Shown: positions 5,688 through 46,078 of the stretch, piece after piece
How the letters are laid out: each line of letters opens with the position of its first letter
How positions within the stretch are numbered: position 1 is the stretch's first letter
Assembly (NCBI RefSeq): GCF_045037415.1
Contig: NZ_CP173438.1
From: Escherichia coli
GTDB lineage: Bacteria > Pseudomonadota > Gammaproteobacteria > Enterobacterales > Enterobacteriaceae
DNA: 64,000 nucleotides
Strand: one strand, 5' to 3'
Made by a program: the position numbers and the translations under genes
Notes under the pieces: model-generated
The model's database searches: none
The model's input: the letters and a program-made list of their open reading frames with translations, nothing else
What the model was told of the DNA's origin: nothing

Positions 5688-8579
<2,892 letters not shown>

Positions 8580-9103: not shown

Positions 9104-9129
9104 TTCTCCCGATGTCCTCAATTGAAATG

Positions 9130-9158
9130 AACCCGATGATCTGCGCATCGGGTTTTTT
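9130..9158 (+). terminator. intrinsic terminator after the motAB-cheAW operon
   Basis: Hairpin aacccgatgatctgcgcatcgggtt followed by a T6 run. Confidence 0.5.
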
Positions 9159-9247
9159 ATTTCAATTTCGCGGCGGGTGGCATCAGCAATAAAGTTTCCC
9201 CCCTCCTTGCCGATAACGAGATCAACTTGTTTTCAGGAAGGTGCCTT

Positions 9248-20543: not shown

Positions 20544-21299
<756 letters not shown>

Positions 21300-21344
21300 T
21301 TTTTACCGTTGCATCATGTCGCCCAATATGATGCTTGCTCGTAC

Positions 21345-21378
21345 CAGGCCCCTGCAATTTCAACAGGGGCCTTTTTTT
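21345..21378 (+). terminator. intrinsic terminator after cutC
   Basis: Hairpin caggcccctgcaatttcaacaggggcc followed by a T7 run. Confidence 0.45.
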
Positions 21379-35216: not shown

Positions 35217-35873
35217 TCAGAAAATATCCCACCTGGCATCAACCACAACACCTACTATTTCGCAATCATTGTCCATTTCTATGATTGGATATTGTGGATT
35301 AAGGGGCTTTAGAAACGCCTTTCCCATGTCAGAAATATATTTTTTGAATGTTGCTTCATTGGTAGATTTTTTTCTGGCGATGACGTAACACCCTGAAAAA
35401 ACTTCTTTATCTGGGTTGACAAGGATCGACATTCCTTCAGGAAATGTTATTCCTACGGGCGAAGTCATTGAGTCTCCGTGCACTTCCAGCCAGAACCCCC
35501 TCTCACCAGCGTATTTTACAGAATGCCTCCAATTATCCTGATCATACATGTTGTAGTCATCACCAGAAGTTGCGAATAATCCTGCCTGAACCCAGTTAAT
35601 TACAGGGTAAGAGTGTGCTGTGTCTCTCTGTGGGCAGCTCTTAACATTATTTTCCCAATGCTTATCTTTTTCATCTCCGTTCTGAAGCCACTGCGGTGAA
35701 CACCGCAGTGCAGCTGCAACTTTAAAAAGGGTGTCACCGTTGAAACTTTTTGTAAGGCCTTGCTCGGCTTTACTGATTGCAACTCTGGTGATCCCAGCTT
35801 TTTTAGCCAACGCATCTTGTGTTAACCCAGCTTTTTGCCGTGCGTTGATGAGACGTTCACCTAAAGACTTCAT
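35217..35873 (-). CDS. CI-like prophage repressor (N-terminal HTH plus C-terminal S24 LexA-like peptidase)
   Basis: ORF 35217..35948; start placed at MKSLGERLINARQKAGLTQDALAKKAGITRVAISKAEQG; C-terminal domain has VHGDSM (Ser) and downstream Lys of the S24 autoprotease. Confidence 0.82.
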   Translation of the reverse strand: MKSLGERLINARQKAGLTQDALAKKAGITRVAISKAEQGLTKSFNGDTLFKVAAALRCSPQWLQNGDEKDKHWENNVKSCPQRDTAHSYPVINWVQAGLFATSGDDYNMYDQDNWRHSVKYAGERGFWLEVHGDSMTSPVGITFPEGMSILVNPDKEVFSGCYVIARKKSTNEATFKKYISDMGKAFLKPLNPQYPIIEMDNDCEIVGVVVDARWDIF

Positions 35874-35984
35874 TTTTCTTCTCCTCTCATGGCTGTTGAT
35901 ACTAAAGTAACAGAATTTCTTGATACTTTGGATTCCTGTGGTTAACATCGTTGAATAACAAAGTATCTGGTGTGAGACTAAAGA

Positions 35985-36212
35985 ATGACCCTTTATGAAA
36001 TATTAAAAATTCAATTTAAAACCAATGCCGCTATTGGTCGCAGGTTCCCAAAGAAAGGAAGGCCTCGTGGCAGTCAAGGTGTTGGAAAGTGGAAAACGCG
36101 AGGTGTTCCGGAGGATGTTGCCATTCTTTGTCATCTGGATCCGAGCATTCCATATACACACCCAAGTCTAGCGAATACAGAAGATGACAAGCCCACAGGA
36201 GACCAACAATGA
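35985..36212 (+). CDS. ORF in the cro position (divergent from the repressor); function unverified
   Basis: 75-aa ORF divergent from the cI-like gene; no clear helix-turn-helix by eye, assignment positional only. Confidence 0.3.
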   Translation: MTLYEILKIQFKTNAAIGRRFPKKGRPRGSQGVGKWKTRGVPEDVAILCHLDPSIPYTHPSLANTEDDKPTGDQQ

Positions 36213-36916
36213 ACACCGCAATTTTTAACGGCAAAGCATCCATGACCAGCGTTGAGATCGCAGAGCTGGTGGGAAGCCGACCAGATAGTGTTAAGAGAAC
36301 TATTGAAACACTGGCTAAAAAGGGAATCATCCAATTTCCACAGACTGTGGAAATTGAGAATAAACAATCACTTGGGCCTCGCCGATTTTCTAGCGCGTAT
36401 GTATTCGAAGGTGAACGAGGTAAGCGCGACAGCATCATTGTCGTCGCACAGCTCTGTCCTGAATTCACAGCTCGCCTGGTAGATCGCTGGCGCGAACTGG
36501 AAGAACAGATCCGTAAGCCAATGAGCGAAATCGAAATGGTTGCCGCGATGGCTCTTGAAGCCGTTCGCCAACAGAAACGGATCACTCAGGTGGAAGAAAA
36601 AGTCAGCCACGTTGCTGAAACAGTCGAGCAAATTAAAAAGGGCACTATTCGTGAGGGCTATGCCGGATATCGCCAACTGAAAGCAAAAACCGGTTTGTCA
36701 GATGATAAATGCCGCAATCTGGTGAACGCCTATCAAATTCCTACAGACACACATGAGTTCATGACGCCGGACGGATTGTTGTCACGTCGCGCAATTGTTG
36801 CTGTGGAACCGTTTATGGCTGCTTTTTATCGGGTTATGGAGGAAGCAGAACCGCGAGGGACTCGCTGGTATCACCCGAAAATGGGGTTATTTCAGGTTAT
36901 TGGTTGGCAGCGGTGA
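36209..36916 (+). CDS. Rha-like / antirepressor-like phage regulatory protein
   Basis: 235-aa ORF; N-terminal segment MTSVEIAELVGSRPDSVKRTIETL resembles the Rha-type DNA-binding motif pattern. Confidence 0.45.
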   Translation: MNTAIFNGKASMTSVEIAELVGSRPDSVKRTIETLAKKGIIQFPQTVEIENKQSLGPRRFSSAYVFEGERGKRDSIIVVAQLCPEFTARLVDRWRELEEQIRKPMSEIEMVAAMALEAVRQQKRITQVEEKVSHVAETVEQIKKGTIREGYAGYRQLKAKTGLSDDKCRNLVNAYQIPTDTHEFMTPDGLLSRRAIVAVEPFMAAFYRVMEEAEPRGTRWYHPKMGLFQVIGWQR

Positions 36917-37024
36917 AAAAAAGCCGGGAGTAACCCGGCTCACTCAACATCAATAACGGGGAGCTGTTTCGCATAAAACGGCTCCGAAACATCCAAGAAC
37001 AGTTCTAAAGATATCAGCAGCTAT

Positions 37025-37325
37025 ATGATCATTTCAAGACCAAATATTGATTCTGCAATTTCGGGACGTTACACTGTCTCCGCACCTTATAAAGCGGGTG
37101 CCGGGATTGGCGTCCTGAAATTGTCAACGGCGATGTATGACGCGCCAGCGTCTTTTTTATCGTCCGCATTTGCTCACATCCAGATTATGGTGGGCTGGGC
37201 GGGGGCACCGAAAGGTGCGCCGGTTCTCCGTTGACGCCGGTTACGCCAACCCCGTCCAGTTCACCACCAGTGAAATTGGCGTTTCCGGTGGTGGAAGTTT
37301 TTCACTGTCAACGGAGGCTGCCATC
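37025..37325 (+). repeat. about 300-bp leader repeat, copy 1 (terminator-like hairpin plus GAAA-tetraloop stem)
   Basis: Direct repeat of 37685-37984; the first about 60 nt are near-identical (atattgattctgcaatt.cgggacgttacactg...accttataaagcgggtgccggg); contains gacgcgccagcgtc followed by T6, and gcaccGAAAggtgc. Confidence 0.5.
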
Positions 37326-37688
37326 ATGGCTACTGTCCTAACTTCCCCATTCCTAAAAATCGAAGTCGTCAACGGCAAGGCCGTTATTTTCTCCCTGCAT
37401 GTTGCCTGCCATTTCAAGCGCATGCACCAGAACATCGTTGACAAAATCGAGTATCTGAACTGCTCACGCGAGTTTTTTACCCGCAATTTCATACCGGGTA
37501 CTTATCACATCTACGGTGACTCCCTGCGTGGTTATTACATCACCCTTGATGGTCTGATGATGCTTCAGCTTGGGTTAAGTCTGCGCACAATGCGGTACTA
37601 CGAGAGCTGTATTGAAGCATTCCATGAGGCTGAAACCGTCCAGGGTCACTCCGCGTTCCGTCGTAATCAACGGGAGGTGCACCTATGA
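37326..37688 (+). CDS. Rha-family regulatory protein (short form)
   Basis: Start placed at MATVLTSPFLKIEVVNGKAVIFSLHVACHFKRMHQNIVDKIEYL... behind a GGAGG Shine-Dalgarno; the Rha N-terminal pattern parallels the next gene. Confidence 0.55.
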   Translation: MATVLTSPFLKIEVVNGKAVIFSLHVACHFKRMHQNIVDKIEYLNCSREFFTRNFIPGTYHIYGDSLRGYYITLDGLMMLQLGLSLRTMRYYESCIEAFHEAETVQGHSAFRRNQREVHL

Positions 37689-37984
37689 TCCGCCACCAGC
37701 ATATTGATTCTGCAATTCCGGGACGTTACACTGCTCAGGCACCTTATAAAGCGGGTGCCGGGCGTGGAAACCCGAAATTCAATATAGAGCACAACCGCGC
37801 TCATGCGGTTTTTTCGTGTCATGAGCATCGTTACACCCAAATTATGGTGGGGCGTGCAGGGCCAACTTCGGTTGGGCCGGGTTCTATGTTGACCGGTATT
37901 TCCACCCCTGTACGTCTCACCACCTATATGGTCGTGGAAAGCCTTGGTGGTGAGTTCATTGAATTCAACATAGGGGCTGTCACC
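37685..37984 (+). repeat. about 300-bp leader repeat, copy 2 (terminator-like hairpin plus UUCG-tetraloop stem)
   Basis: Direct repeat of 37025-37325; contains ccgcgctcatgcgg followed by T6, and ccaacTTCGgttgg; in frame with the downstream Rha ORF, so it could alternatively be coding. Confidence 0.45.
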
Positions 37985-38536
37985 ATGACTACTCTCCCAA
38001 CCCAATCTCACCCTGAAATCACGATTATCAATGGTCGCGTTGTCACCACATCTCTTGCAGTAGCTAATTACTTTACTAAACGGCATGAGCGGGTTTTAGA
38101 TAGAATTAGAAACCTCGAATGTTCCGCTGAATTTACTGAACACAATTTTGTGTTAAGTGAATACACCGACGCATCAGGCCGCAAACTCCCTTGTTACCAA
38201 ATCACCCGCGACGGTTTTGCGTTTCTTGCCATGGGCTTCACTGGTAAACGTGCTGCCCAGTTCAAAGAGGCATACATCAACGCCTTTAACCTGATGGAGA
38301 AGAGTTTATCAGGTGCCGATGCGTCTGATATGTCAGCTGTCGCACGAAACGCCAGAGGCGTATACCTGCATTTGCGTGAAATCCATCAAATCTGGACAAG
38401 CCAGCTTTATCCAATGCTTAAGGCCGTTGAATCTCCGCTGGCTAGCAAACTGTACGACCGTGTTGGTGATGCTGTTTTTGGCGCTGCACTTGTTGATTCC
38501 AGGCTGAATGGTTCTGACAAGGAGGTTCGCCCATGA
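37985..38536 (+). CDS. phage regulatory protein Rha
   Basis: ORF 37685..38536; Rha-like segment EITIINGRVVTTSLAVANYFTKRHERVLDRIRNLECSAEF...YQITRDGFAFLAMGFTGKRAAQFKEAYINAFNLME; start placed at MTTLP behind an AGGGG Shine-Dalgarno. Confidence 0.65.
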   Translation: MTTLPTQSHPEITIINGRVVTTSLAVANYFTKRHERVLDRIRNLECSAEFTEHNFVLSEYTDASGRKLPCYQITRDGFAFLAMGFTGKRAAQFKEAYINAFNLMEKSLSGADASDMSAVARNARGVYLHLREIHQIWTSQLYPMLKAVESPLASKLYDRVGDAVFGAALVDSRLNGSDKEVRP

Positions 38537-43156: not shown

Positions 43157-43219
43157 AATCGTTCTACTTTCCCAACTTTTATGTGTATATAATACCAGGA
43201 TAAAGTAACGGAGAATCTT

Positions 43220-44260
43220 GTGAACATTCAGGCAGTAGACATTTTTTGTGGTGCGGGGGGCTTAACTTTTGGGCTAAAAAAAGCCGGGATTGAGGTTTCT
43301 CATGGTATTGATATTGATGAATCCTGCCGTTTTGCTATTGAGAGCAATAATCCTTTAACGCAGTTCATTAATCAGTCAGTTACAGAACTGCAATCCTGCG
43401 ATGTGTCTGCTATGTTCAAGGAAGGAAATATTAGATTGCTTGCTGGATGTGCTCCTTGCCAACCGTTTTCCAAGTATCGTAATCCAAATAGCCGTAAAGA
43501 CGATACAAAGTGGCGTTTGTTATATGAGTTTCAAAGGCTTGTAAGTGATGTCATGCCAGAGCTTGTGACGATGGAGAATGTTCCTCAACTTAGAAACCAT
43601 AAGGTTTTTGAAGGGTTTGTTAGTGCATTAAAGACTCTTGGATATCATTTGTGGTACGACGTTGTAAGATGTTCTGAGTATGGCTTACCTCAAAATAGAC
43701 GTAGATTAATTCTAATTGGTTCCCAATTGGGGCCGATCAGCCTTGATCAAAAAAAAGTTAGCCGTAAAGTTACTGTTAAGGATGCTATTGGTAGGTTGCC
43801 AAAAGTAGGGGCAGGTGAGAAGCTGGAAAGCGATCCCTTGCATCGTTCGCCTAAATTGATGGATATCAATCTTAAACGAATCATGCATTCTTTACCTGGT
43901 GGTACGTGGGATGACTGGCCTGAAGAAATTAGAGCAGACTGTCATAAAAAGAATTCAGGTGCTACCTATAAAAGCGTTTATGGACGGATGGTTTGGGACG
44001 ATACTAGCCCTACGATAACTACCCAGTGTTATGGATATGGAAATGGACGATTTGGCCATCCTGAGCAAAATCGCGCCATAACTTTGCGTGAAGCTGCGAT
44101 TTTGCAATCCTTTCCAATGGATTATAAATTCCTTGACAAGGAGACGCCTTTTTCATTCCAAAAATTGGGGACAATGATTGGAAATGCTGTTCCCCCTATA
44201 ATTGGTCAGATAATAGGGGAAACATTTATCAGACATGTTGAGGGGATAAATACCCGTTAG
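43220..44260 (+). CDS. DNA (cytosine-5)-methyltransferase, Dcm family
   Basis: 346-aa ORF, GTG start; C5-MTase motifs I FCGAGG, IV PCQPFS, VI ENV, VIII QNRRR and X GNAV are all visible. Confidence 0.85.
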   Translation: MNIQAVDIFCGAGGLTFGLKKAGIEVSHGIDIDESCRFAIESNNPLTQFINQSVTELQSCDVSAMFKEGNIRLLAGCAPCQPFSKYRNPNSRKDDTKWRLLYEFQRLVSDVMPELVTMENVPQLRNHKVFEGFVSALKTLGYHLWYDVVRCSEYGLPQNRRRLILIGSQLGPISLDQKKVSRKVTVKDAIGRLPKVGAGEKLESDPLHRSPKLMDINLKRIMHSLPGGTWDDWPEEIRADCHKKNSGATYKSVYGRMVWDDTSPTITTQCYGYGNGRFGHPEQNRAITLREAAILQSFPMDYKFLDKETPFSFQKLGTMIGNAVPPIIGQIIGETFIRHVEGINTR

Positions 44261-44918
44261 AGGTAATATAATTTTCTGTTGAGTTGATTAATAAACGCAA
44301 ATATAGATCAATTCTTTCTGACCTCGATTTGACTTCTTCTAAAGGGTCTATTTGACCTTTTTTAGAAAAGCTGGTACTTCCATGTGCCAGCTCATTTCTG
44401 ATATCTTTAAGTAAATCTAAGTCAACACCATTTCTACACTCTGGTGAGTTTGCAACAGTTATTCCGTAAGCTTGTGTTATTTTGTGCAATACAGACTTGC
44501 AAACATTACCATTGAATTCTTTACGTATGTTTAATGAGGCTGAAATGATCCTTTTAGATATATCGGAACCAATTTTTTGATAAAGAGATTTTCCCGATTC
44601 ATTATCTGAAATGATACGGTGCAAGATATTTACTTGGAATTTCTCCCTGAGTGATGCGTAATTTACTTCATTATCTTGCAAATGGTCATAAATTGACTCA
44701 ATGCATCCTCTGGCAGTGTTTTCAACCTGATTGTACAGCATCATGTGCACGGATGATTTTAAAATGTTAACCCTAAGGGTATTTGATTCTATTTCATCTT
44801 TATGCGTTTGCTGATCTAACTGCTGAGTCTGAGCCTCTAAAGATGACGCAAGAGAAAGCAATTCCATAATATCTCTTGCTCTTTCTTCGTATTCATCTCT
44901 TAAATCAATCAAACTCAT
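44229..44918 (-). CDS. HEPN-domain protein (predicted RNase/nuclease), partner of the DUF262 protein
   Basis: 229-aa ORF; C-terminal Rx4H HEPN motif (DIRNELAHG); ATG 2 nt after the stop of the upstream DUF262 gene with an AGGA Shine-Dalgarno inside that gene's 3' end. Confidence 0.65.
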   Translation of the reverse strand: MSLIDLRDEYEERARDIMELLSLASSLEAQTQQLDQQTHKDEIESNTLRVNILKSSVHMMLYNQVENTARGCIESIYDHLQDNEVNYASLREKFQVNILHRIISDNESGKSLYQKIGSDISKRIISASLNIRKEFNGNVCKSVLHKITQAYGITVANSPECRNGVDLDLLKDIRNELAHGSTSFSKKGQIDPLEEVKSRSERIDLYLRLLINSTENYITSNGYLSPQHV

Positions 44919-44920
44919 AG

Positions 44921-46078
44921 TTACATTCCTAATAATTTATCTTTGACATAAAATATTCTGTTTTTGAGTTGGCTGGTGTTGTTGGCACTATCAGCAGTAA
45001 CTATGGTTTCAAATTCCTCCCCAAACAGCCAGTCTCCTACAGGAATAACCGGAGCCTGTAGATGTGGATTGGCTTTTAAGGCAAGAGCAGTTCCCACTGC
45101 TATGGCTTCGTATCTAGCACGGGGGGTGGTTTTGCTTGTTGGTGTCTTTTTAAACCCCATAGGGAAATGAGCATCTACAAAAGCAAGCATGCTTTCAAAA
45201 TCATGTTTAAATTTGTCTACATCTTGTTGTGTGACCCTTTCGGCCTGAACATTAAGATAATTGTCAATAAAAGGAGCGACATAACCCTTATAATTTTCTA
45301 AATCATTTAAGTATGCAAAAAATCTCAAAACTAACTCACGATGATCGCCATTCGAACGTTTCCGGTCTGATAATGGAGCTAGACTAGCGAAAAGTGGATT
45401 TGTTGAGCAAGGAGTCACAACATCCCTATAGAAAATTGAAGTGGCCGCATCTGAACCATGTCTAACCTCCATCGCTTCCAGTCTCTTAACACCTGAATTT
45501 ATTCTTTCGAATAAATCTCTTCTATGTTGCTCCTCAACATCACCTTTCAATTCAATAAATCTTAGTGATGCCCTTAAAAATCGCCTCTGGCGGCTAGCCA
45601 AAAGATCTGAAAATTTGAAGCCCTCTAAACTTTTGAGTTCTTTTAAGTCTTTCAATTCAAACTGATTGTTCCAAAAGTAGTAAATTGAGCGAATCCTTTG
45701 TGAACCGTCAATAATTTCTACACGACCATCCAACTCAGGATCTTCATTAAATACGTCGGAGATGTAGAGGTACGGGATTGGAAAATCTAATAATATACTT
45801 TCGATGAATCGAGAGGCTGTTTTGATATCCCATTTGTAATCGCGTTGATAATCAGGAATAAAAAGTTCGTTTTTGTCAGTTTCAAGATTATTGCCATACT
45901 TTTGTACAATTAATTCAACGGTCCATTCACGTACGTTGTATCCAATATTTCTCTGAGCAAGCCTAATCTCGTTGTCGGCAGAAGTGACCAAGGCTGCAAT
46001 TTCAGCTTTTTTTCTATTTTTCGCGTTTTCATCTTGAATCTGAGCAAGCTCTTCTTTGAGTTCTTTGAGTGTGGTCAT
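44921..46078 (-). CDS. DUF262 (ParB/Srx-like, GmrS-N-type) domain protein without an HNH/DUF1524 domain
   Basis: 385-aa ORF; DUF262 hallmarks FIPDYQRDYKW and IIDGSQR near the N-terminus; long helical C-terminal region with no nuclease motif. Confidence 0.75.
   Translation of the reverse strand: MTTLKELKEELAQIQDENAKNRKKAEIAALVTSADNEIRLAQRNIGYNVREWTVELIVQKYGNNLETDKNELFIPDYQRDYKWDIKTASRFIESILLDFPIPYLYISDVFNEDPELDGRVEIIDGSQRIRSIYYFWNNQFELKDLKELKSLEGFKFSDLLASRQRRFLRASLRFIELKGDVEEQHRRDLFERINSGVKRLEAMEVRHGSDAATSIFYRDVVTPCSTNPLFASLAPLSDRKRSNGDHRELVLRFFAYLNDLENYKGYVAPFIDNYLNVQAERVTQQDVDKFKHDFESMLAFVDAHFPMGFKKTPTSKTTPRARYEAIAVGTALALKANPHLQAPVIPVGDWLFGEEFETIVTADSANNTSQLKNRIFYVKDKLLGM

What the first reader, a model, noticed from the sequence alone, without database searches (positions are those of the whole stretch)
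36209..38536. Three consecutive Rha/antirepressor-like regulatory genes directly after the cI/cro region
The products of 36209..36916, 37326..37688 and 37985..38536 all share an Rha-like N-terminal DNA-binding pattern (for example ...VVTTSLAVANYFTKRHERVLDRIRNL...). The middle copy is short, suggesting duplication and decay. A triple array of Rha modules in the early-right operon is unusual and may reflect an anti-repressor or host-sensing regulatory layer.
Basis: partly seen in the sequence, partly recalled or inferred. Interest (0 to 1): 0.3.

Follow-up and report, generated by a model that had tools for sequence, protein, structure and literature searches.

The report
Tandem antisense-RNA-locked Rha gene cassettes

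Summary
The three ORFs exist at the stated coordinates. They are not three decaying copies of one gene.

**Copy 1 (36209-36916).** It is a homologue of HK022 Roi. It is only remotely Rha-like: Pfam gives 25.6 bits, below the cut-off, and BLASTP finds no similarity to copies 2 or 3.

**Copies 2 and 3.** They are paralogues (35% identity). Each is the payload of a complete regulatory cassette that fills the supposed intergenic gap. A cassette has a conserved promoter, an IsrK/c4-a1b1 decoy RNA with its terminator, a C4 antisense RNA, and a leader whose a2/b2 sites cover the Shine-Dalgarno sequence. Rfam finds both RNA pairs above gathering score. The layout matches P1 immI, P4 and Gifsy-1 isrK-anrP to within a few bases.

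**Specificity.** The two cassettes carry different C4 loops, with matching changes in their own decoy and leader. Across 86 related cassettes, cognate loop-leader helices have a median of 11 bp, against 6 bp for non-cognate pairs.

**The short middle gene.** Its 120-aa form keeps its length in other phages, so shortness is not decay. What is damaged is its leader ORF, broken by one extra T found in 1 of 117 E. coli genomes.

**The "Ash domain".** This annotation on these proteins is the translated RNA region.

**Verdict.** This is a known kind of system in a tandem arrangement with Rha payloads. Antirepressor function of the payloads is inferred, not shown.

The parts
35217..35948 (-). cI-type repressor (HTH_3 plus Peptidase_S24; PGAP start gives 35217-35873). 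Context: the presumed target of any antirepressor.
   Evidence: Pfam S24 4.2e-22 and HTH_3 2.1e-14. PGAP calls it 'LexA family protein'.
35985..36212 (+). Small ORF in the cro position (75 aa, no family match). Its stop overlaps the copy-1 start (ATGA).
   Evidence: It hits phrog_4749, of unknown function. 'Cro' is assigned by position only.
36209..36916 (+). Copy 1: Roi-like protein (235 aa) with a remote Rha/winged-helix N-terminus and an unassigned C-terminal domain. No RNA cassette lies upstream.
   Evidence: Pfam Rha 25.6 bits, below the gathering score. phrog_63 'Ant' 3e-46. 49.7% identity to the HK022 roi-position ORF, E = 4.6e-30. No BLASTP similarity to copies 2 or 3.
36332..36356 (.). 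Perfect 12+1+12 dyad CAATTTCCACAG-A-CTGTGGAAATTG inside copy 1, within the hypervariable segment (aa 23-65) that encodes the recognition helix and wing.
   Evidence: Found (I4) and unique in the window. The other five alleles found each carry their own, imperfect dyad at the same spot.
36923..36939 (.). GC-rich hairpin just after copy 1. It scores as a terminator only on the minus strand (T-run); on the plus strand it lacks a U-run.
37047..37075 (+). Cassette 1 promoter: TTGATT-N17-TACACT, 7 nt before the isrK +1.
   Evidence: Both hexamers are nearly invariant across related cassettes (entropy track). It is colinear with the P1 P1c4 and Gifsy-1 PisrK regions. The simple consensus scan did not flag it (8 of 12 matches).
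37082..37158 (+). IsrK-1 / c4-a1b1 decoy RNA. a1 is TTGGCGT at 37107-37113, in a hairpin loop. b1 is TGTCAACGG at 37122-37130. The intrinsic terminator is at 37139-37158.
   Evidence: Rfam RF01394 62.2 bits (gathering score 50) and RF03163 23.9 bits. Terminator scan. Coordinates.
37183..37271 (+). C4-1 antisense RNA. b' is the hairpin-2 loop (U)UCUCCGUUGACG at 37224-37236. a' is ACGCCAA at 37243-37249. The AUG at 37187 opens the orf45/leader frame.
   Evidence: Rfam RF01695 77.7 bits (gathering score 45). The structure has 14 of 27 pairs with compensatory changes. The a'/b' assignment matches the curated P1 annotation.
37224..37225 (+). TT where 113 near-identical E. coli genomes have a gapped 98.6% match, as from a 1-nt indel (a single T confirmed only in Ecol_AZ146). 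The extra T lies in the C4-1 loop and shifts the leader ORF into a TGA at 37232-37234.
   Evidence: 1-nt indel against Ecol_AZ146. (1 of 117 genomes is identical). (PGAP: 'ash family protein, frameshifted').
37272..37325 (+). Leader 1. a2 is TTGGCGT at 37276-37282. GGTGGTG at 37287-37293 is complementary to the C4 3' strand. b2 is TGTCAACGGAGG at 37306-37317 and includes the SD GGAGG.
   Evidence: There is a 12-bp contiguous helix between b' and b2 and a 7-bp helix between a' and a2.
37326..37688 (+). Copy 2: Rha-domain-only protein of 120 aa, the payload of cassette 1.
   Evidence: Pfam Rha 30.0 bits. phrog_995 1.6e-55. The 120/121-aa length is conserved in other contigs.
37704..37732 (+). 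Cassette 2 promoter: TTGATT-N17-TACACT.
   Evidence: D1: a 79-nt direct repeat, 85% identical, spacing 657.
37739..37815 (+). IsrK-2 / c4-a1b1 decoy RNA. a1 is GTGGAAA at 37764-37770. b1 is TCAATATAGAG at 37779-37789. The terminator is at 37793-37814.
   Evidence: Rfam RF01394 61.6 bits and RF03163 23.6 bits. Terminator.
37840..37927 (+). C4-2 antisense RNA. b' is UUCUAUGUUGA at 37882-37892. a' is UUUCCAC at 37899-37905. The AUG is at 37844.
   Evidence: Rfam RF01695 82.4 bits..
37928..37984 (+). Leader 2. a2 is GTGGAAA at 37934-37940. GGTGGTG is at 37946-37952. b2 is TCAACATAGGG at 37965-37975 and overlaps the SD.
   Evidence: There is an 11-bp helix between b' and b2 and a 7-bp helix between a' and a2.
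37985..38536 (+). Copy 3: Rha protein of 183 aa (Rha domain plus a helical C-terminal domain), the payload of cassette 2.
   Evidence: Pfam Rha 106.3 bits. phrog_821 2e-105. AF2 model with mean pLDDT 69; the N-terminal domain is above 85.
37685..38536 (+). The long 283-aa ORF that PGAP annotates as 'Rha family phage regulatory protein'. Its first 100 codons are the translation of promoter 2, isrK-2, C4-2 and leader 2. It starts at GGAGG-N7-ATGA, overlapping the copy-2 stop.
   Evidence: (Phage_ASH 38.4 bits on residues 15-111).

Best explanation
The locus holds three units in the early-right operon of a lambdoid (Eru7-like) E. coli prophage.

**Unit 1: copy 1.** It is a Roi-type winged-helix protein made from the early-right (PR-type) transcript. 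Its start overlaps the stop of the cro-position ORF. Its DNA-binding segment is allelic, and the segment's own coding DNA carries a 25-bp dyad. I infer that this dyad is the protein's binding site.

**Units 2 and 3: two tandem immI-type cassettes.** Each has its own weak sigma-70 promoter. Most transcripts stop at the IsrK terminator and give a short RNA that displays the sequences a1 and b1. Read-through transcripts contain the C4 RNA. In P1, C4 is cut out of the precursor by RNase P (stated from my own knowledge, not checked here).

**How each cassette works.**
- C4 pairs through its hairpin-2 loop (b') and the following single strand (a') with b2 and a2 in the leader of the same operon.
- b2 contains the Shine-Dalgarno sequence of the Rha gene, so C4 keeps the Rha protein untranslated in the lysogen.
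- IsrK carries copies of the same targets and can titrate C4 or remodel the leader. This switches translation on, as shown experimentally for Gifsy-1 IsrK and AnrP.
- The two cassettes have different a' and b' sequences, with matching a1/b1 and a2/b2. Each Rha gene is therefore locked mainly by its own C4.

**Payloads and current state.** The payloads are most likely antirepressor-type regulators that act on the cI-type repressor or on another prophage's repressor. In this particular strain, cassette 1 has a 1-nt insertion that truncates the orf45-like leader ORF to 15 codons. By analogy with Gifsy-1, this should blunt activation of copy 2.

**Shown and inferred.**
- Shown here: the identity and structure of the RNAs, the target complementarity and its covariation, and the colinearity with P1, P4 and Gifsy-1.
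- Inferred: expression in the lysogen, translational repression, decoy action, and antirepressor activity of the Rha proteins.
For: **RNA identity.** Rfam finds isrK and C4 twice, all four above gathering score. The c4-a1b1 model overlaps both isrK hits.

**RNA structure.** In a 26-sequence C4 alignment, 14 of 27 pairs are kept through changes on both sides. Both window copies fit the consensus.

**Target pairing in the window.**

| Cassette | b':b2 | b':b1 | a':a2 | a':a1 |
|---|---|---|---|---|
| 1 | 12 bp | 9 bp | 7 bp | 7 bp |
| 2 | 11 bp | 11 bp | 7 bp | 7 bp |

**Covariation across 86 cassettes.**
- There are 33 distinct b' loops.
- The cognate b'-leader helix has a median of 11 bp, against 6 bp for non-cognate pairs.
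- Only 1.2% of non-cognate pairs reach 11 bp.

**Geometry compared with the curated P1 immI.**

| Spacing | P1 | Here |
|---|---|---|
| a1 start to b1 start | 14 nt | 15 nt |
| C4 3' end to a2 | 4 nt | 5 nt |
| a2 start to b2 start | 29 nt | 30 nt |
| b2 end to start codon | 11 nt | 9 nt |

- b' lies in the hairpin-2 loop and a' in the single strand that follows, as in P1.

**Colinearity.** A five-way alignment of both cassettes with Gifsy-1, P4 and P1 is colinear from the -35 hexamer to the payload ATG. Gifsy-1 and P4 give the same isrK-C4 pair in Rfam.

**Experimental precedent.**
- Gifsy-1: IsrK in trans raises anrP translation 139-fold, and a stop early in orf45 cuts activation from 114-fold to 8-fold (PMC4825925).
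- P1: C4 blocks expression of icd and ant (PMC8198154).

**Signals.** Terminators sit at both isrK 3' ends. The promoter hexamers are conserved.

**Leader lesion.**

**Synteny.** Every copy-1 homologue with enough flanking sequence is followed by at least one cassette about 265 nt downstream.
Against: - There are no expression data for this prophage.
- The payloads are not homologous to the characterised antirepressors. P1 Ant1 is ANT/KilAC and Gifsy-1 AnrP is ORF6N, and BLASTP finds no similarity to them. No Rha-family protein was shown here to bind a repressor.
- Orthogonality is not clean. The C4-2 a' can form 9 bp with GGUGGAAGU in leader 1, and the two b' loops share GUUGA.
- The promoters match consensus in only 8 of 12 positions and the simple scan did not report them.
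- One reading frame is kept free of stops through the whole cassette. A purely non-coding model does not explain this.
Confidence: 0.75

Rival explanations
1. First reader's model. The three genes are paralogous Rha regulators made by serial gene duplication. The middle one is decaying, and control is purely at the protein level.
For: All three give some Phage_pRha signal. Copies 2 and 3 are clear paralogues. The two cassettes are direct repeats 657 nt apart.
Against: - Copy 1 has no pairwise similarity to copies 2 or 3. It is a Roi homologue with another domain layout.
- The duplicated unit is the whole RNA cassette plus gene, not the gene alone.
- The 120-aa form keeps its length across contigs.
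- The cassette RNAs show covariation that only an RNA-level function explains.
Confidence: 0.05
2. The long ORFs are the real genes. The proteins are Ash-Rha fusions: 283 aa for copy 3, and 220 aa for copy 2 in strains without the extra T. 'Ash' is a genuine protein domain and the Rfam hits are a side effect of its conserved coding sequence.
For: - PGAP, Pfam (Phage_ASH, up to 67.9 bits) and PHROGs 821/995 all model the long form.
- The Ash frame has 29 stops in 7,119 codons, against 170 and 311 in the other two frames. Even the hypervariable sub-regions avoid stops.
- The long ORF of cassette 2 has a GGAGG-N7-ATGA start.
Against: - Variation shows no excess at the third codon position (entropy 0.63/0.66/0.68; permutation p = 0.34).
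- The conserved columns are the RNA stems, and they change in a compensatory way.
- A promoter and an intrinsic terminator lie inside the supposed ORF.
- The same sequences are experimentally established RNAs in P1, P4 and Gifsy-1.
- The Pfam Ash model matches P4's obsolete 'cI 137 aa' ORF exactly where the CI RNA lies. P4's real derepression protein epsilon belongs to a different family.
- More divergent cassettes do have stops in this frame.
Confidence: 0.1
3. The RNA cassettes are as described, but the Rha payloads are not antirepressors. They could be transcription or replication-licensing regulators (the 'Eru' replication-unit idea), or host-interfering proteins like P22 Rha and HK022 Roi, which block lytic growth in IHF-deficient hosts.
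For: - The Rha domain is a winged-helix DNA-binding fold. The weak fold matches are to PadR- and GntR-type regulators only.
- PMC8951638 places Rha and Rha/Ash genes in the putative replication unit of Eru6/7/9 Stx phages.
- Other cassettes of this family carry quite different payloads: 57-81-aa proteins and ~220-aa proteins.
Against: - In the characterised relatives (P1 and Gifsy-1 here; N15 from my own knowledge), the C4-type lock guards an antirepressor or anti-immunity function.
- A separate replication module lies downstream: a 328-aa protein, a DnaC-like ATPase and a DnaB helicase.
Confidence: 0.3
4. The cassettes are inert remnants, for example picked up from a P4-like satellite or another phage, and no longer regulate anything in this prophage.
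For: Cassette 1 carries a frameshifting insertion in this strain. Cassettes are mosaic and mobile among phages.
Against: - Both cassettes are complete: promoter, terminator, folded C4, matched targets, and an intact payload ORF with an SD.
- About 100 E. coli genomes keep the pair, and 113 of 117 have a gapped 98.6% match at the lesion site, consistent with lacking the extra T (confirmed only for Ecol_AZ146).
- Cognate pairing is preserved despite loop divergence.
Confidence: 0.07

Closest known systems
Phage P1/P7 immI operon (c4 - icd - ant1/ant2)
   Same: - Promoter, a1/b1, C4 RNA, a2/b2 and start codon follow in the same order with spacing within 1-2 nt.
- b' lies in the hairpin-2 loop and a' in the single strand that follows.
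- b2 abuts or covers the ribosome-binding site.
- Specificity is set by a few loop bases with matched targets, as in P1/P7 heteroimmunity (that comparison is from my own knowledge).
   Different: - The gene at b2 is the Rha payload itself. There is no separate 73-codon icd followed by ant.
- The payload is Rha (PF09669), not ANT/KilAC.
- The a1/b1 region ends in an intrinsic terminator, giving a discrete IsrK RNA.
- There are two cassettes in tandem.
- The host is a lambdoid prophage with a LexA-like S24 repressor, not the P1 C1 system. No C1-type operator was looked for or found.
Salmonella Gifsy-1 isrK - orf45 (STnc1160) - anrP locus (Hershko-Shalev et al. 2016, PMC4825925)
   Same: - The same Rfam pair isrK + C4 occurs in the same order.
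- The payload ATG sits at the same aligned position, directly after the b2/SD GGAGG.
- A leader ORF starts at the AUG at the 5' end of C4.
- This is the only relative with direct evidence that the short RNA activates translation of the payload.
   Different: - AnrP is an ORF6N protein with no similarity to copies 2 or 3.
- In Gifsy-1, orf45 is annotated as a separate 45-codon ORF upstream of anrP. In cassette 2 here the leader frame is fused in frame to the payload.
- The Gifsy-1 locus lies after the Q gene, not after cro. It is a single cassette and has isrJ downstream.
Satellite phage P4 immunity region (seqA - CI RNA/seqB - seqC - kil/eta)
   Same: The region gives the same isrK + C4 + c4-a1b1 hits and is colinear in the alignment. 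P4's old 'cI 137 aa' ORF is the source of the Pfam Ash signal.
   Different: - P4 CI acts mainly by causing premature, Rho-dependent transcription termination of the replication operon (discussion of PMC4825925; details from my own knowledge).
- The payloads are kil/eta, epsilon and alpha, not Rha.
- P4 has an ~80-nt insertion in the C4 outer stem.
HK022 Roi / P22 Rha (for copy 1)
   Same: - The N-terminal 140 aa of copy 1 are 49.7% identical to the HK022 ORF between P and Q, the roi position.
- A dyad lies at the same codon position (CTGCA-T-TGCAG in HK022).
- From memory of Clerget and Boccard 1996 (paper not held): Roi binds a site inside its own gene, next to an IHF site.
   Different: - HK022 Roi has an ANT/KilAC-like C-terminus, similar to that of P1 Ant. 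Copy 1 has an unrelated, unassigned C-terminal domain.
- Copy 1 sits in the cII position after cro, not between P and Q.
Phage N15 anti-immunity locus (CA RNA - icd - antA/B/C)
   Same: From my own knowledge (Ravin et al. 1999): a small processed RNA of the P4 CI / P1 C4 type controls an antirepressor operon in a temperate phage with a lambda-like primary repressor.
   Different: Not examined here. N15 has a single cassette with multi-gene payloads.

Membership tests
C4 antisense RNA (Rfam RF01695; P1 c4 / P4 CI type) | Covariance-model match above the gathering score (45 bits). | tested here: met
   82.4 bits at 37840-37927 and 77.7 bits at 37183-37271, both matching the full model.
C4 antisense RNA (Rfam RF01695; P1 c4 / P4 CI type) | A long outer stem enclosing two hairpins, supported by compensatory changes. 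| tested here: met
   The RNAalifold consensus over 26 sequences has 27 pairs, 14 of them with changes on both sides. Both window copies conform.
C4 antisense RNA (Rfam RF01695; P1 c4 / P4 CI type) | The unpaired b' (hairpin-2 loop) and a' (3' single strand) are complementary to b2/a2 in the downstream leader and to b1/a1 upstream. | tested here: met
   Helices of 12/9/7/7 bp in cassette 1 and 11/11/7/7 bp in cassette 2. Cognate versus non-cognate median is 11 versus 6 bp across 86 cassettes. The positions match curated P1.
C4 antisense RNA (Rfam RF01695; P1 c4 / P4 CI type) | The RNA is excised from a longer precursor (RNase P in P1) and accumulates in the lysogen. | not testable with these tools
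   No transcript data are available. The feature itself is cited from my own knowledge of P1.
IsrK / c4-a1b1 (Rfam RF01394 / RF03163) | Covariance-model match above the gathering score (50 bits for isrK). | tested here: met
   isrK scores 62.2 and 61.6 bits. c4-a1b1 scores only 23.9 and 23.6 bits, below its gathering score of 46.7.
IsrK / c4-a1b1 (Rfam RF01394 / RF03163) | Own promoter and an intrinsic terminator, so that a discrete short RNA is made. | tested here: inconclusive
   Terminators are found at 37139-37158 and 37793-37814. A conserved TTGATT-N17-TACACT lies 7 nt upstream of +1, but it matches consensus in only 8 of 12 positions and there is no transcript evidence.
P1 immI-type antirepressor operon | The a2/b2 targets overlap the translation-initiation region of the first gene after C4. 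| tested here: met
   b2 contains the SD GGAGG (37313-37317), 9 nt before the ATG at 37326. In cassette 2, b2 (37965-37975) ends 9 nt before the ATG at 37985.
P1 immI-type antirepressor operon | A short leader gene (icd / orf45 / kil) is translationally coupled to the antirepressor gene. | tested here: inconclusive
   A frame opening at the C4 AUG runs to the payload in 77 of 86 cassettes. In cassette 2 it is fused in frame. In cassette 1 of this window it is cut to 15 codons by the extra T. There is no separate icd gene, and Icd has no Pfam family to test against.
P1 immI-type antirepressor operon | The payload is a protein that binds and inactivates the primary repressor. | not testable with these tools
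   The payloads are Rha-domain proteins, unrelated in sequence to P1 Ant (ANT/KilAC) and AnrP (ORF6N). The fold search was uninformative.
Phage_pRha (Pfam PF09669) | Score at or above the gathering score of 29.9 bits. | tested here: met
   Copy 3 scores 106.3 and copy 2 scores 30.0, which is borderline. This row applies to copies 2 and 3 only.
Phage_pRha (Pfam PF09669) | Score at or above the gathering score, for copy 1. | tested here: not met
   25.6 bits, E = 1.9e-5, full-length alignment to the model. No NCBIfam hit. PGAP nevertheless names it 'Rha family transcriptional regulator'.
HK022 Roi family (copy 1) | Sequence homology to Roi. | tested here: met
   49.7% identity over residues 1-140, E = 4.6e-30. 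The PhiR49_2 record labels a gene under the match (query 297-2701) 'Roi'.
HK022 Roi family (copy 1) | The protein binds a site within its own gene. | not testable with these tools
   A 25-bp perfect dyad lies inside the gene and is unique in the window. Allele-specific dyads lie at the same spot in homologues. Binding was not tested, and the Roi precedent is recalled from memory (paper not held).
Pfam Phage_ASH (PF10554) as a protein domain | Conservation pattern of a translated protein domain (excess variation at third codon positions). | tested here: not met
   Mean entropy by codon position is 0.633/0.659/0.675, permutation p = 0.34. The Ash match coincides with the isrK and C4 RNA genes here and in P4.

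The most novel reading that the evidence does not exclude
The "Ash domain" annotated on many phage Rha proteins, including those of the widespread Eru6/7/9 Stx phages, is not a protein domain. It is the footprint of the IsrK/C4 RNA switch.

Even so, the phage keeps the region free of stop codons in one frame, so that ribosomes arriving from the upstream early-right (PR-type) operon can read straight through the promoter, decoy, terminator and antisense RNA.

The Rha payloads would then have two modes of expression:
- **Lysogen.** Transcription starts at the cassette's own promoter and the payload is locked by C4.
- **Lytic growth or infection.** The payload is translated as a long fusion from PR read-through. 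The translating ribosome melts the terminator and the C4 fold and bypasses the lock.

Tandem cassettes would chain this bypass through ATGA-coupled restarts.
Probability: 0.25. Interest if true: 0.55.

Novelty: new variant of a known kind. Interest (0 to 1): 0.4.

Why it matters
**Annotation.** Genome annotation currently labels these genes "ash family protein" and "Rha family phage regulatory protein". Recent work on Shiga-toxin phages lists "Rha/Ash domain" proteins of unknown function as candidate replication-unit genes of the common Eru7 type (PMC8951638). If the Ash part is recognised as an IsrK/C4 antisense switch, these genes become RNA-locked regulators of the lysis-lysogeny decision.

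**Relevance to Shiga-toxin phages.** In Gifsy-1 the same switch drives RecA-independent prophage induction in stationary phase (PMC4825925). If that holds here, it points to a testable route for spontaneous induction, and hence toxin release, in Stx phages.

**Diversity of the switch.** The tandem, differently keyed pair and the 33 loop specificities found in one small sample suggest a combinatorial immunity code comparable to P1/P7 heteroimmunity.

**Limits.** Nothing here overturns known mechanisms. The main value is correct annotation and a set of concrete experiments.

Tried and rejected
- **Full-length RNA duplex energies.** They were uninformative: every pairing gave -43 to -55 kcal/mol with implausible structures. 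I used segment-level helices instead.
- **Simple promoter scan.** It did not report the cassette promoters. They rest on conservation and on colinearity with P1 and Gifsy-1.
- **Sequence comparison with characterised antirepressors.** AnrP against copies 2 and 3, and P1 Ant1 against copies 1 and 3, gave no similarity.
- **PDB sequence search for copies 1 and 3.** No hits at E ≤ 1.
- **AF2 model of copy 3 and Foldseek against PDB.**
  - Mean pLDDT was 69, and the C-terminal half was 50-65.
  - The best Foldseek hit had E = 0.087, and only weak winged-helix regulators appeared.
  - No functional assignment was possible.
- **Test of "Ash" as a real protein domain.** Codon-position periodicity was absent, so I rejected it as a conventional domain.
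- **Pfam Ash = P4 epsilon, as used in PMC8628076.** Rejected. Epsilon is PF25738, and Ash matches the obsolete P4 cI ORF over the CI RNA.
- **Further copies of the copy-1 dyad or its half-site in the window.** None beyond chance.
- **Repeats shared between the cI-cro region and the cassette promoters (operator sharing).** Nothing convincing.
- **"b' always differs within tandem pairs" (6 of 6).** I do not count this as evidence of selection. With 33 loop types it is expected by chance.
- **Clerget and Boccard 1996 (PMC178163).** The paper could not be read.

Full report
**1. Setting**

The window is E. coli chromosome plus a prophage. It carries MicL (in cutC) and C0465.
- The segment is 100% identical, apart from one base, to strain Ecol_AZ146.
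- It matches strain A1.S1.126 exactly at the diagnostic site.
- The prophage lies next to a DUF72 (yecE-type) gene.
- Its order is integrase, an early-left region, a cI-type HTH+S24 repressor (35217-35873/35948, minus strand), a 75-aa ORF in the cro position (35985-36212), and then the three genes of the finding.
- Small ORFs follow, then a 328-aa protein, a DnaC-like ATPase, a DnaB helicase and Q.
- The region resembles the Eru7 representative Stx2_14040 (LC567818): 83.5% identity over copy 1 and the first cassette (type assignment from PMC8951638).

**2. The observation**

The three ORFs are real and at the stated coordinates.

| Copy | Pfam Phage_pRha bits (gathering score 29.9) |
|---|---|
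| 3 | 106.3 |
| 2 | 30.0 |
| 1 | 25.6 |

- Copies 2 and 3 are 35% identical (E = 4e-20).
- Copy 1 has no BLASTP similarity to either. It belongs to phrog_63, while copies 2 and 3 belong to phrog_995/821.
- "Three Rha-like N-termini" therefore holds only at the remote level, and "three copies of one module" does not hold.

**3.

The gaps between the genes are two copies of one element, 657 nt apart. Rfam identifies four RNA genes, all above gathering score:

| RNA | Cassette 1 | Cassette 2 |
|---|---|---|
| isrK | 37082-37158 | 37739-37815 |
| C4 | 37183-37271 | 37840-37927 |

With relaxed thresholds, the c4-a1b1 model ("a1, b1 targets of C4 antisense RNA") overlaps both isrK hits. Each cassette contains, in order:
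- a conserved TTGATT-N17-TACACT promoter, 7 nt before the isrK +1;
- two small hairpins, the second presenting a1 in its loop;
- b1;
- an intrinsic terminator;
- a ~25-nt spacer;
- C4;
- a leader with a2 and b2;
- the Rha gene, 9 nt after b2.

**4. Evidence that the RNAs are functional and specific**

- *C4 fold.* It is supported by 14 of 27 pairs with changes on both sides in 26 diverse sequences. Both window copies fit, and they differ from each other by compensatory changes in the outer stem.
- *Assignment of a' and b'.* In the curated P1 annotation, b' is the hairpin-2 loop and a' is the single strand after it. I used the same assignment.
- *Cassette 1.* b' UCUCCGUUGACG pairs over 12 bp with b2 UGUCAACGGAGG, which contains the SD, and over 9 bp with b1. 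a' ACGCCAA pairs with UUGGCGU in both a2 and a1.
- *Cassette 2.* b' UUCUAUGUUGA pairs over 11 bp with b2 UCAACAUAGGG and over 11 bp with b1 (one G-U pair). a' UUUCCAC pairs with GUGGAAA in a2 and a1.
- *Wider sample.* A pattern scan of IMG/VR returned 120 loci, which I parsed into 86 distinct cassettes.
  - They hold 33 different b' loops and 16 a' segments.
  - The cognate b'-leader helix has a median of 11 bp, against 6 bp for non-cognate pairs.
  - Only 1.2% of non-cognate pairs reach 11 bp.
  - This covariation between separate segments is what an antisense lock predicts.

**5. Relation to characterised systems**

- The spacing of a1, b1, C4, a2, b2 and the start codon agrees with P1 immI to within 1-2 nt.
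- Gifsy-1 has isrK and C4 (the STnc1160/orf45 region) immediately upstream of anrP. P4 has the same pair over seqA and CI.
- A five-way alignment is colinear from the -35 hexamer to the payload ATG.
- In Gifsy-1, IsrK supplied in trans raises anrP translation 139-fold. This needs translation of orf45, and the isrK promoter is required for stationary-phase prophage induction (PMC4825925).
- In P1, C4 is needed to keep icd and ant silent (PMC8198154).
- The payloads differ between systems: P1 Ant1 is ANT/KilAC, AnrP is ORF6N, and here they are Rha.
- Other cassettes in the sample carry 57-81-aa and ~220-aa proteins. The lock is therefore a portable module placed in front of varied regulators.

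**6. The middle gene is not decayed, but its leader is broken**

- The 120/121-aa Rha-only form recurs at that length behind differently keyed cassettes in several contigs, including L003, which matches the length of phiP27.
- What is unusual in this window is one extra T in the C4-1 loop (TT at 37224-37225).
  - Only 1 of 117 E. coli genomes with this sequence matches the window exactly; 113 match at 98.6%, consistent with a 1-nt indel.
  - C4:b2 pairing is unaffected.
  - The frame that opens at the C4 AUG (37187) now ends at a TGA after 15 codons, instead of running into the Rha gene.
  - PGAP marks the gene as frameshifted.
- In Gifsy-1, an early stop in orf45 reduced activation from 114-fold to 8-fold. 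By analogy, copy 2 is probably poorly activatable in this strain. It could also be a sequencing error in a homopolymer.

**7. How common the tandem form is**

- About 100 of 5,426 complete E. coli genomes hold at least 80% of the 2.7-kb arrangement.
- Copy-1 homologues in IMG/VR are always followed, about 265 nt downstream, by at least one cassette. There is one cassette in 55 and two in 8 of 63 distinct downstream regions.
- Among loci chosen by the isrK pattern, 5 of 120 have two cassettes.
- Tandem pairs combine payloads freely: 120+183, 183+120, 120+121, 181+185 and 397+181 aa.
- Their b' loops always differ. Their a' is the same in 2 of the 6 pairs. Given 33 loop types, the b' difference is expected by chance and is not evidence of selection.
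- Orthogonality is not perfect. The C4-2 a' can pair over 9 nt with GGUGGAAGU in leader 1.

**8. The "Ash" problem**

- PGAP calls the long ORFs "ash family protein" and a 283-aa "Rha family phage regulatory protein". Pfam Phage_ASH matches their N-terminal ~100 residues.
- These residues are the translation of the promoter, isrK, C4 and the leader.
- In P4, the Ash model matches the obsolete "cI gene product (137 aa)" ORF exactly over the CI RNA. The real derepression protein epsilon belongs to PF25738.
- Variation in the Ash frame shows no third-position excess (p = 0.34), so it is not a conventional protein domain.
- The frame is nevertheless strikingly free of stops.
  - It has 29 stops in 7,119 codons, against 170 and 311 in the other two frames.
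  - This includes the hypervariable spacer (0 of 50 distinct sequences, against 6 and 14) and the b1 region (2 of 41, against 18 and 7).
- The second cassettes of tandem arrays begin this frame with GGAGG-N7-ATGA, overlapping the stop of the upstream rha gene.
- Translation from the C4 AUG is expected from orf45, icd and kil/eta. Openness upstream, through isrK, is not explained by the known model. I record it as unexplained and as the basis of the novel reading.

**9. Copy 1**

- It is 49.7% identical over 140 aa to the HK022 ORF in the roi position. HK022 Roi continues with an ANT/KilAC-like C-terminus, whereas copy 1 has a different, unassigned one.
- Alleles of copy 1 are about 96-100% identical in DNA except for codons ~23-65, the recognition helix and wing, where at least six unrelated versions occur.
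- Exactly there the window allele has a perfect 12+1+12 dyad (36332-36356), unique in the window.
- Each other allele has its own dyad at the same position, with 8-10 of 11-12 arm positions symmetric by eye (alleles listed). HK022 roi has CTGCA-T-TGCAG.
- This looks like a DNA-binding specificity cassette carrying its own site. From memory of Clerget and Boccard 1996, which I could not retrieve, Roi binds a site within its own gene. Function here remains inferred.

**10. Verdict**

- The finding is real as a set of ORFs, but it was misread.
- It is a Roi-like gene followed by two tandem, differently keyed IsrK/C4 antisense cassettes guarding Rha-type payloads.
- The unit is a known kind (P1 immI, P4, N15, Gifsy-1). 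The tandem Rha-payload arrangement with an in-frame leader is a variant I did not find described in the searched literature.
- Antirepressor activity of the payloads is the weakest link.

Noticed in passing
window 36332-36356 (inside copy 1, 36209-36916); also L156, L180, L200, L172, L191, and L206 4776-4810: A perfect 25-bp dyad lies inside the copy-1 coding sequence, in a hypervariable patch (codons ~23-65) flanked by ~100% conserved DNA. At least six alleles exist, each with a different dyad at the same spot. It may be the protein's own binding site, by analogy with Roi.
   Followed up: partly
window 37025-37325 and 37685-37984; 86 cassettes from L002-L121: One reading frame through promoter, isrK, terminator, C4 and leader avoids stop codons: 29 in 7,119 codons, against 170 and 311 in the other frames. 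It shows no codon-position periodicity. The region is kept translatable without being a conserved protein, which the published RNA models do not explain.
   Followed up: partly
L122 (phage P4) 8168-8584 (-) versus 7888-8175 (-): Pfam Phage_ASH (PF10554) matches P4's obsolete 'cI 137 aa' ORF over the CI RNA gene, not epsilon (which is PF25738). A P4-satellite survey used PF10554 as the marker for epsilon (PMC8628076), so it was probably detecting the RNA immunity region instead.
   Followed up: yes
window 37224-37225: A single extra T in the C4-1 loop is shared with only one of 117 E. coli genomes (strain A1.S1.126, urine isolate). It truncates the orf45-like leader ORF. It may be a real mutation or a homopolymer sequencing error.
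   Followed up: yes
window 37290-37298 versus 37897-37905: The C4-2 a' segment (AUUUCCACC) is complementary over 9 nt (one G-U pair) to GGUGGAAGU in the leader of cassette 1. This is possible cross-talk between the two cassettes, or coincidence with the conserved GGUGGUG anti-stem motif.
   Followed up: no
window 43219-46077: A low-GC patch (0.375) between Q and the lysis genes holds a DNA cytosine methyltransferase, a MAE_28990-family HEPN-like nuclease and a DUF262 protein. It looks like a defence-type insertion in the prophage.
   Followed up: no
window 36921-36941: The GC hairpin right after copy 1 scores as an intrinsic terminator only on the minus strand (T-run), although no minus-strand gene ends there. 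On the plus strand it lacks a U-run, so PR read-through into cassette 1 is likely.
   Followed up: no
window 21071-21378 and 9123-9200: MicL sRNA (371 bits) and C0465 RNA (112 bits) lie in the chromosomal part of the window. They are ordinary E. coli features and served only to identify the host.
   Followed up: no
L029 4087-4252; loci with C4 offsets (262, 625): Some tandem arrays have a second cassette whose isrK is truncated or divergent (34.7 bits), or two C4 genes only ~363 nt apart. These suggest cassettes without a full payload, or cassettes in the course of rearrangement.
   Followed up: no
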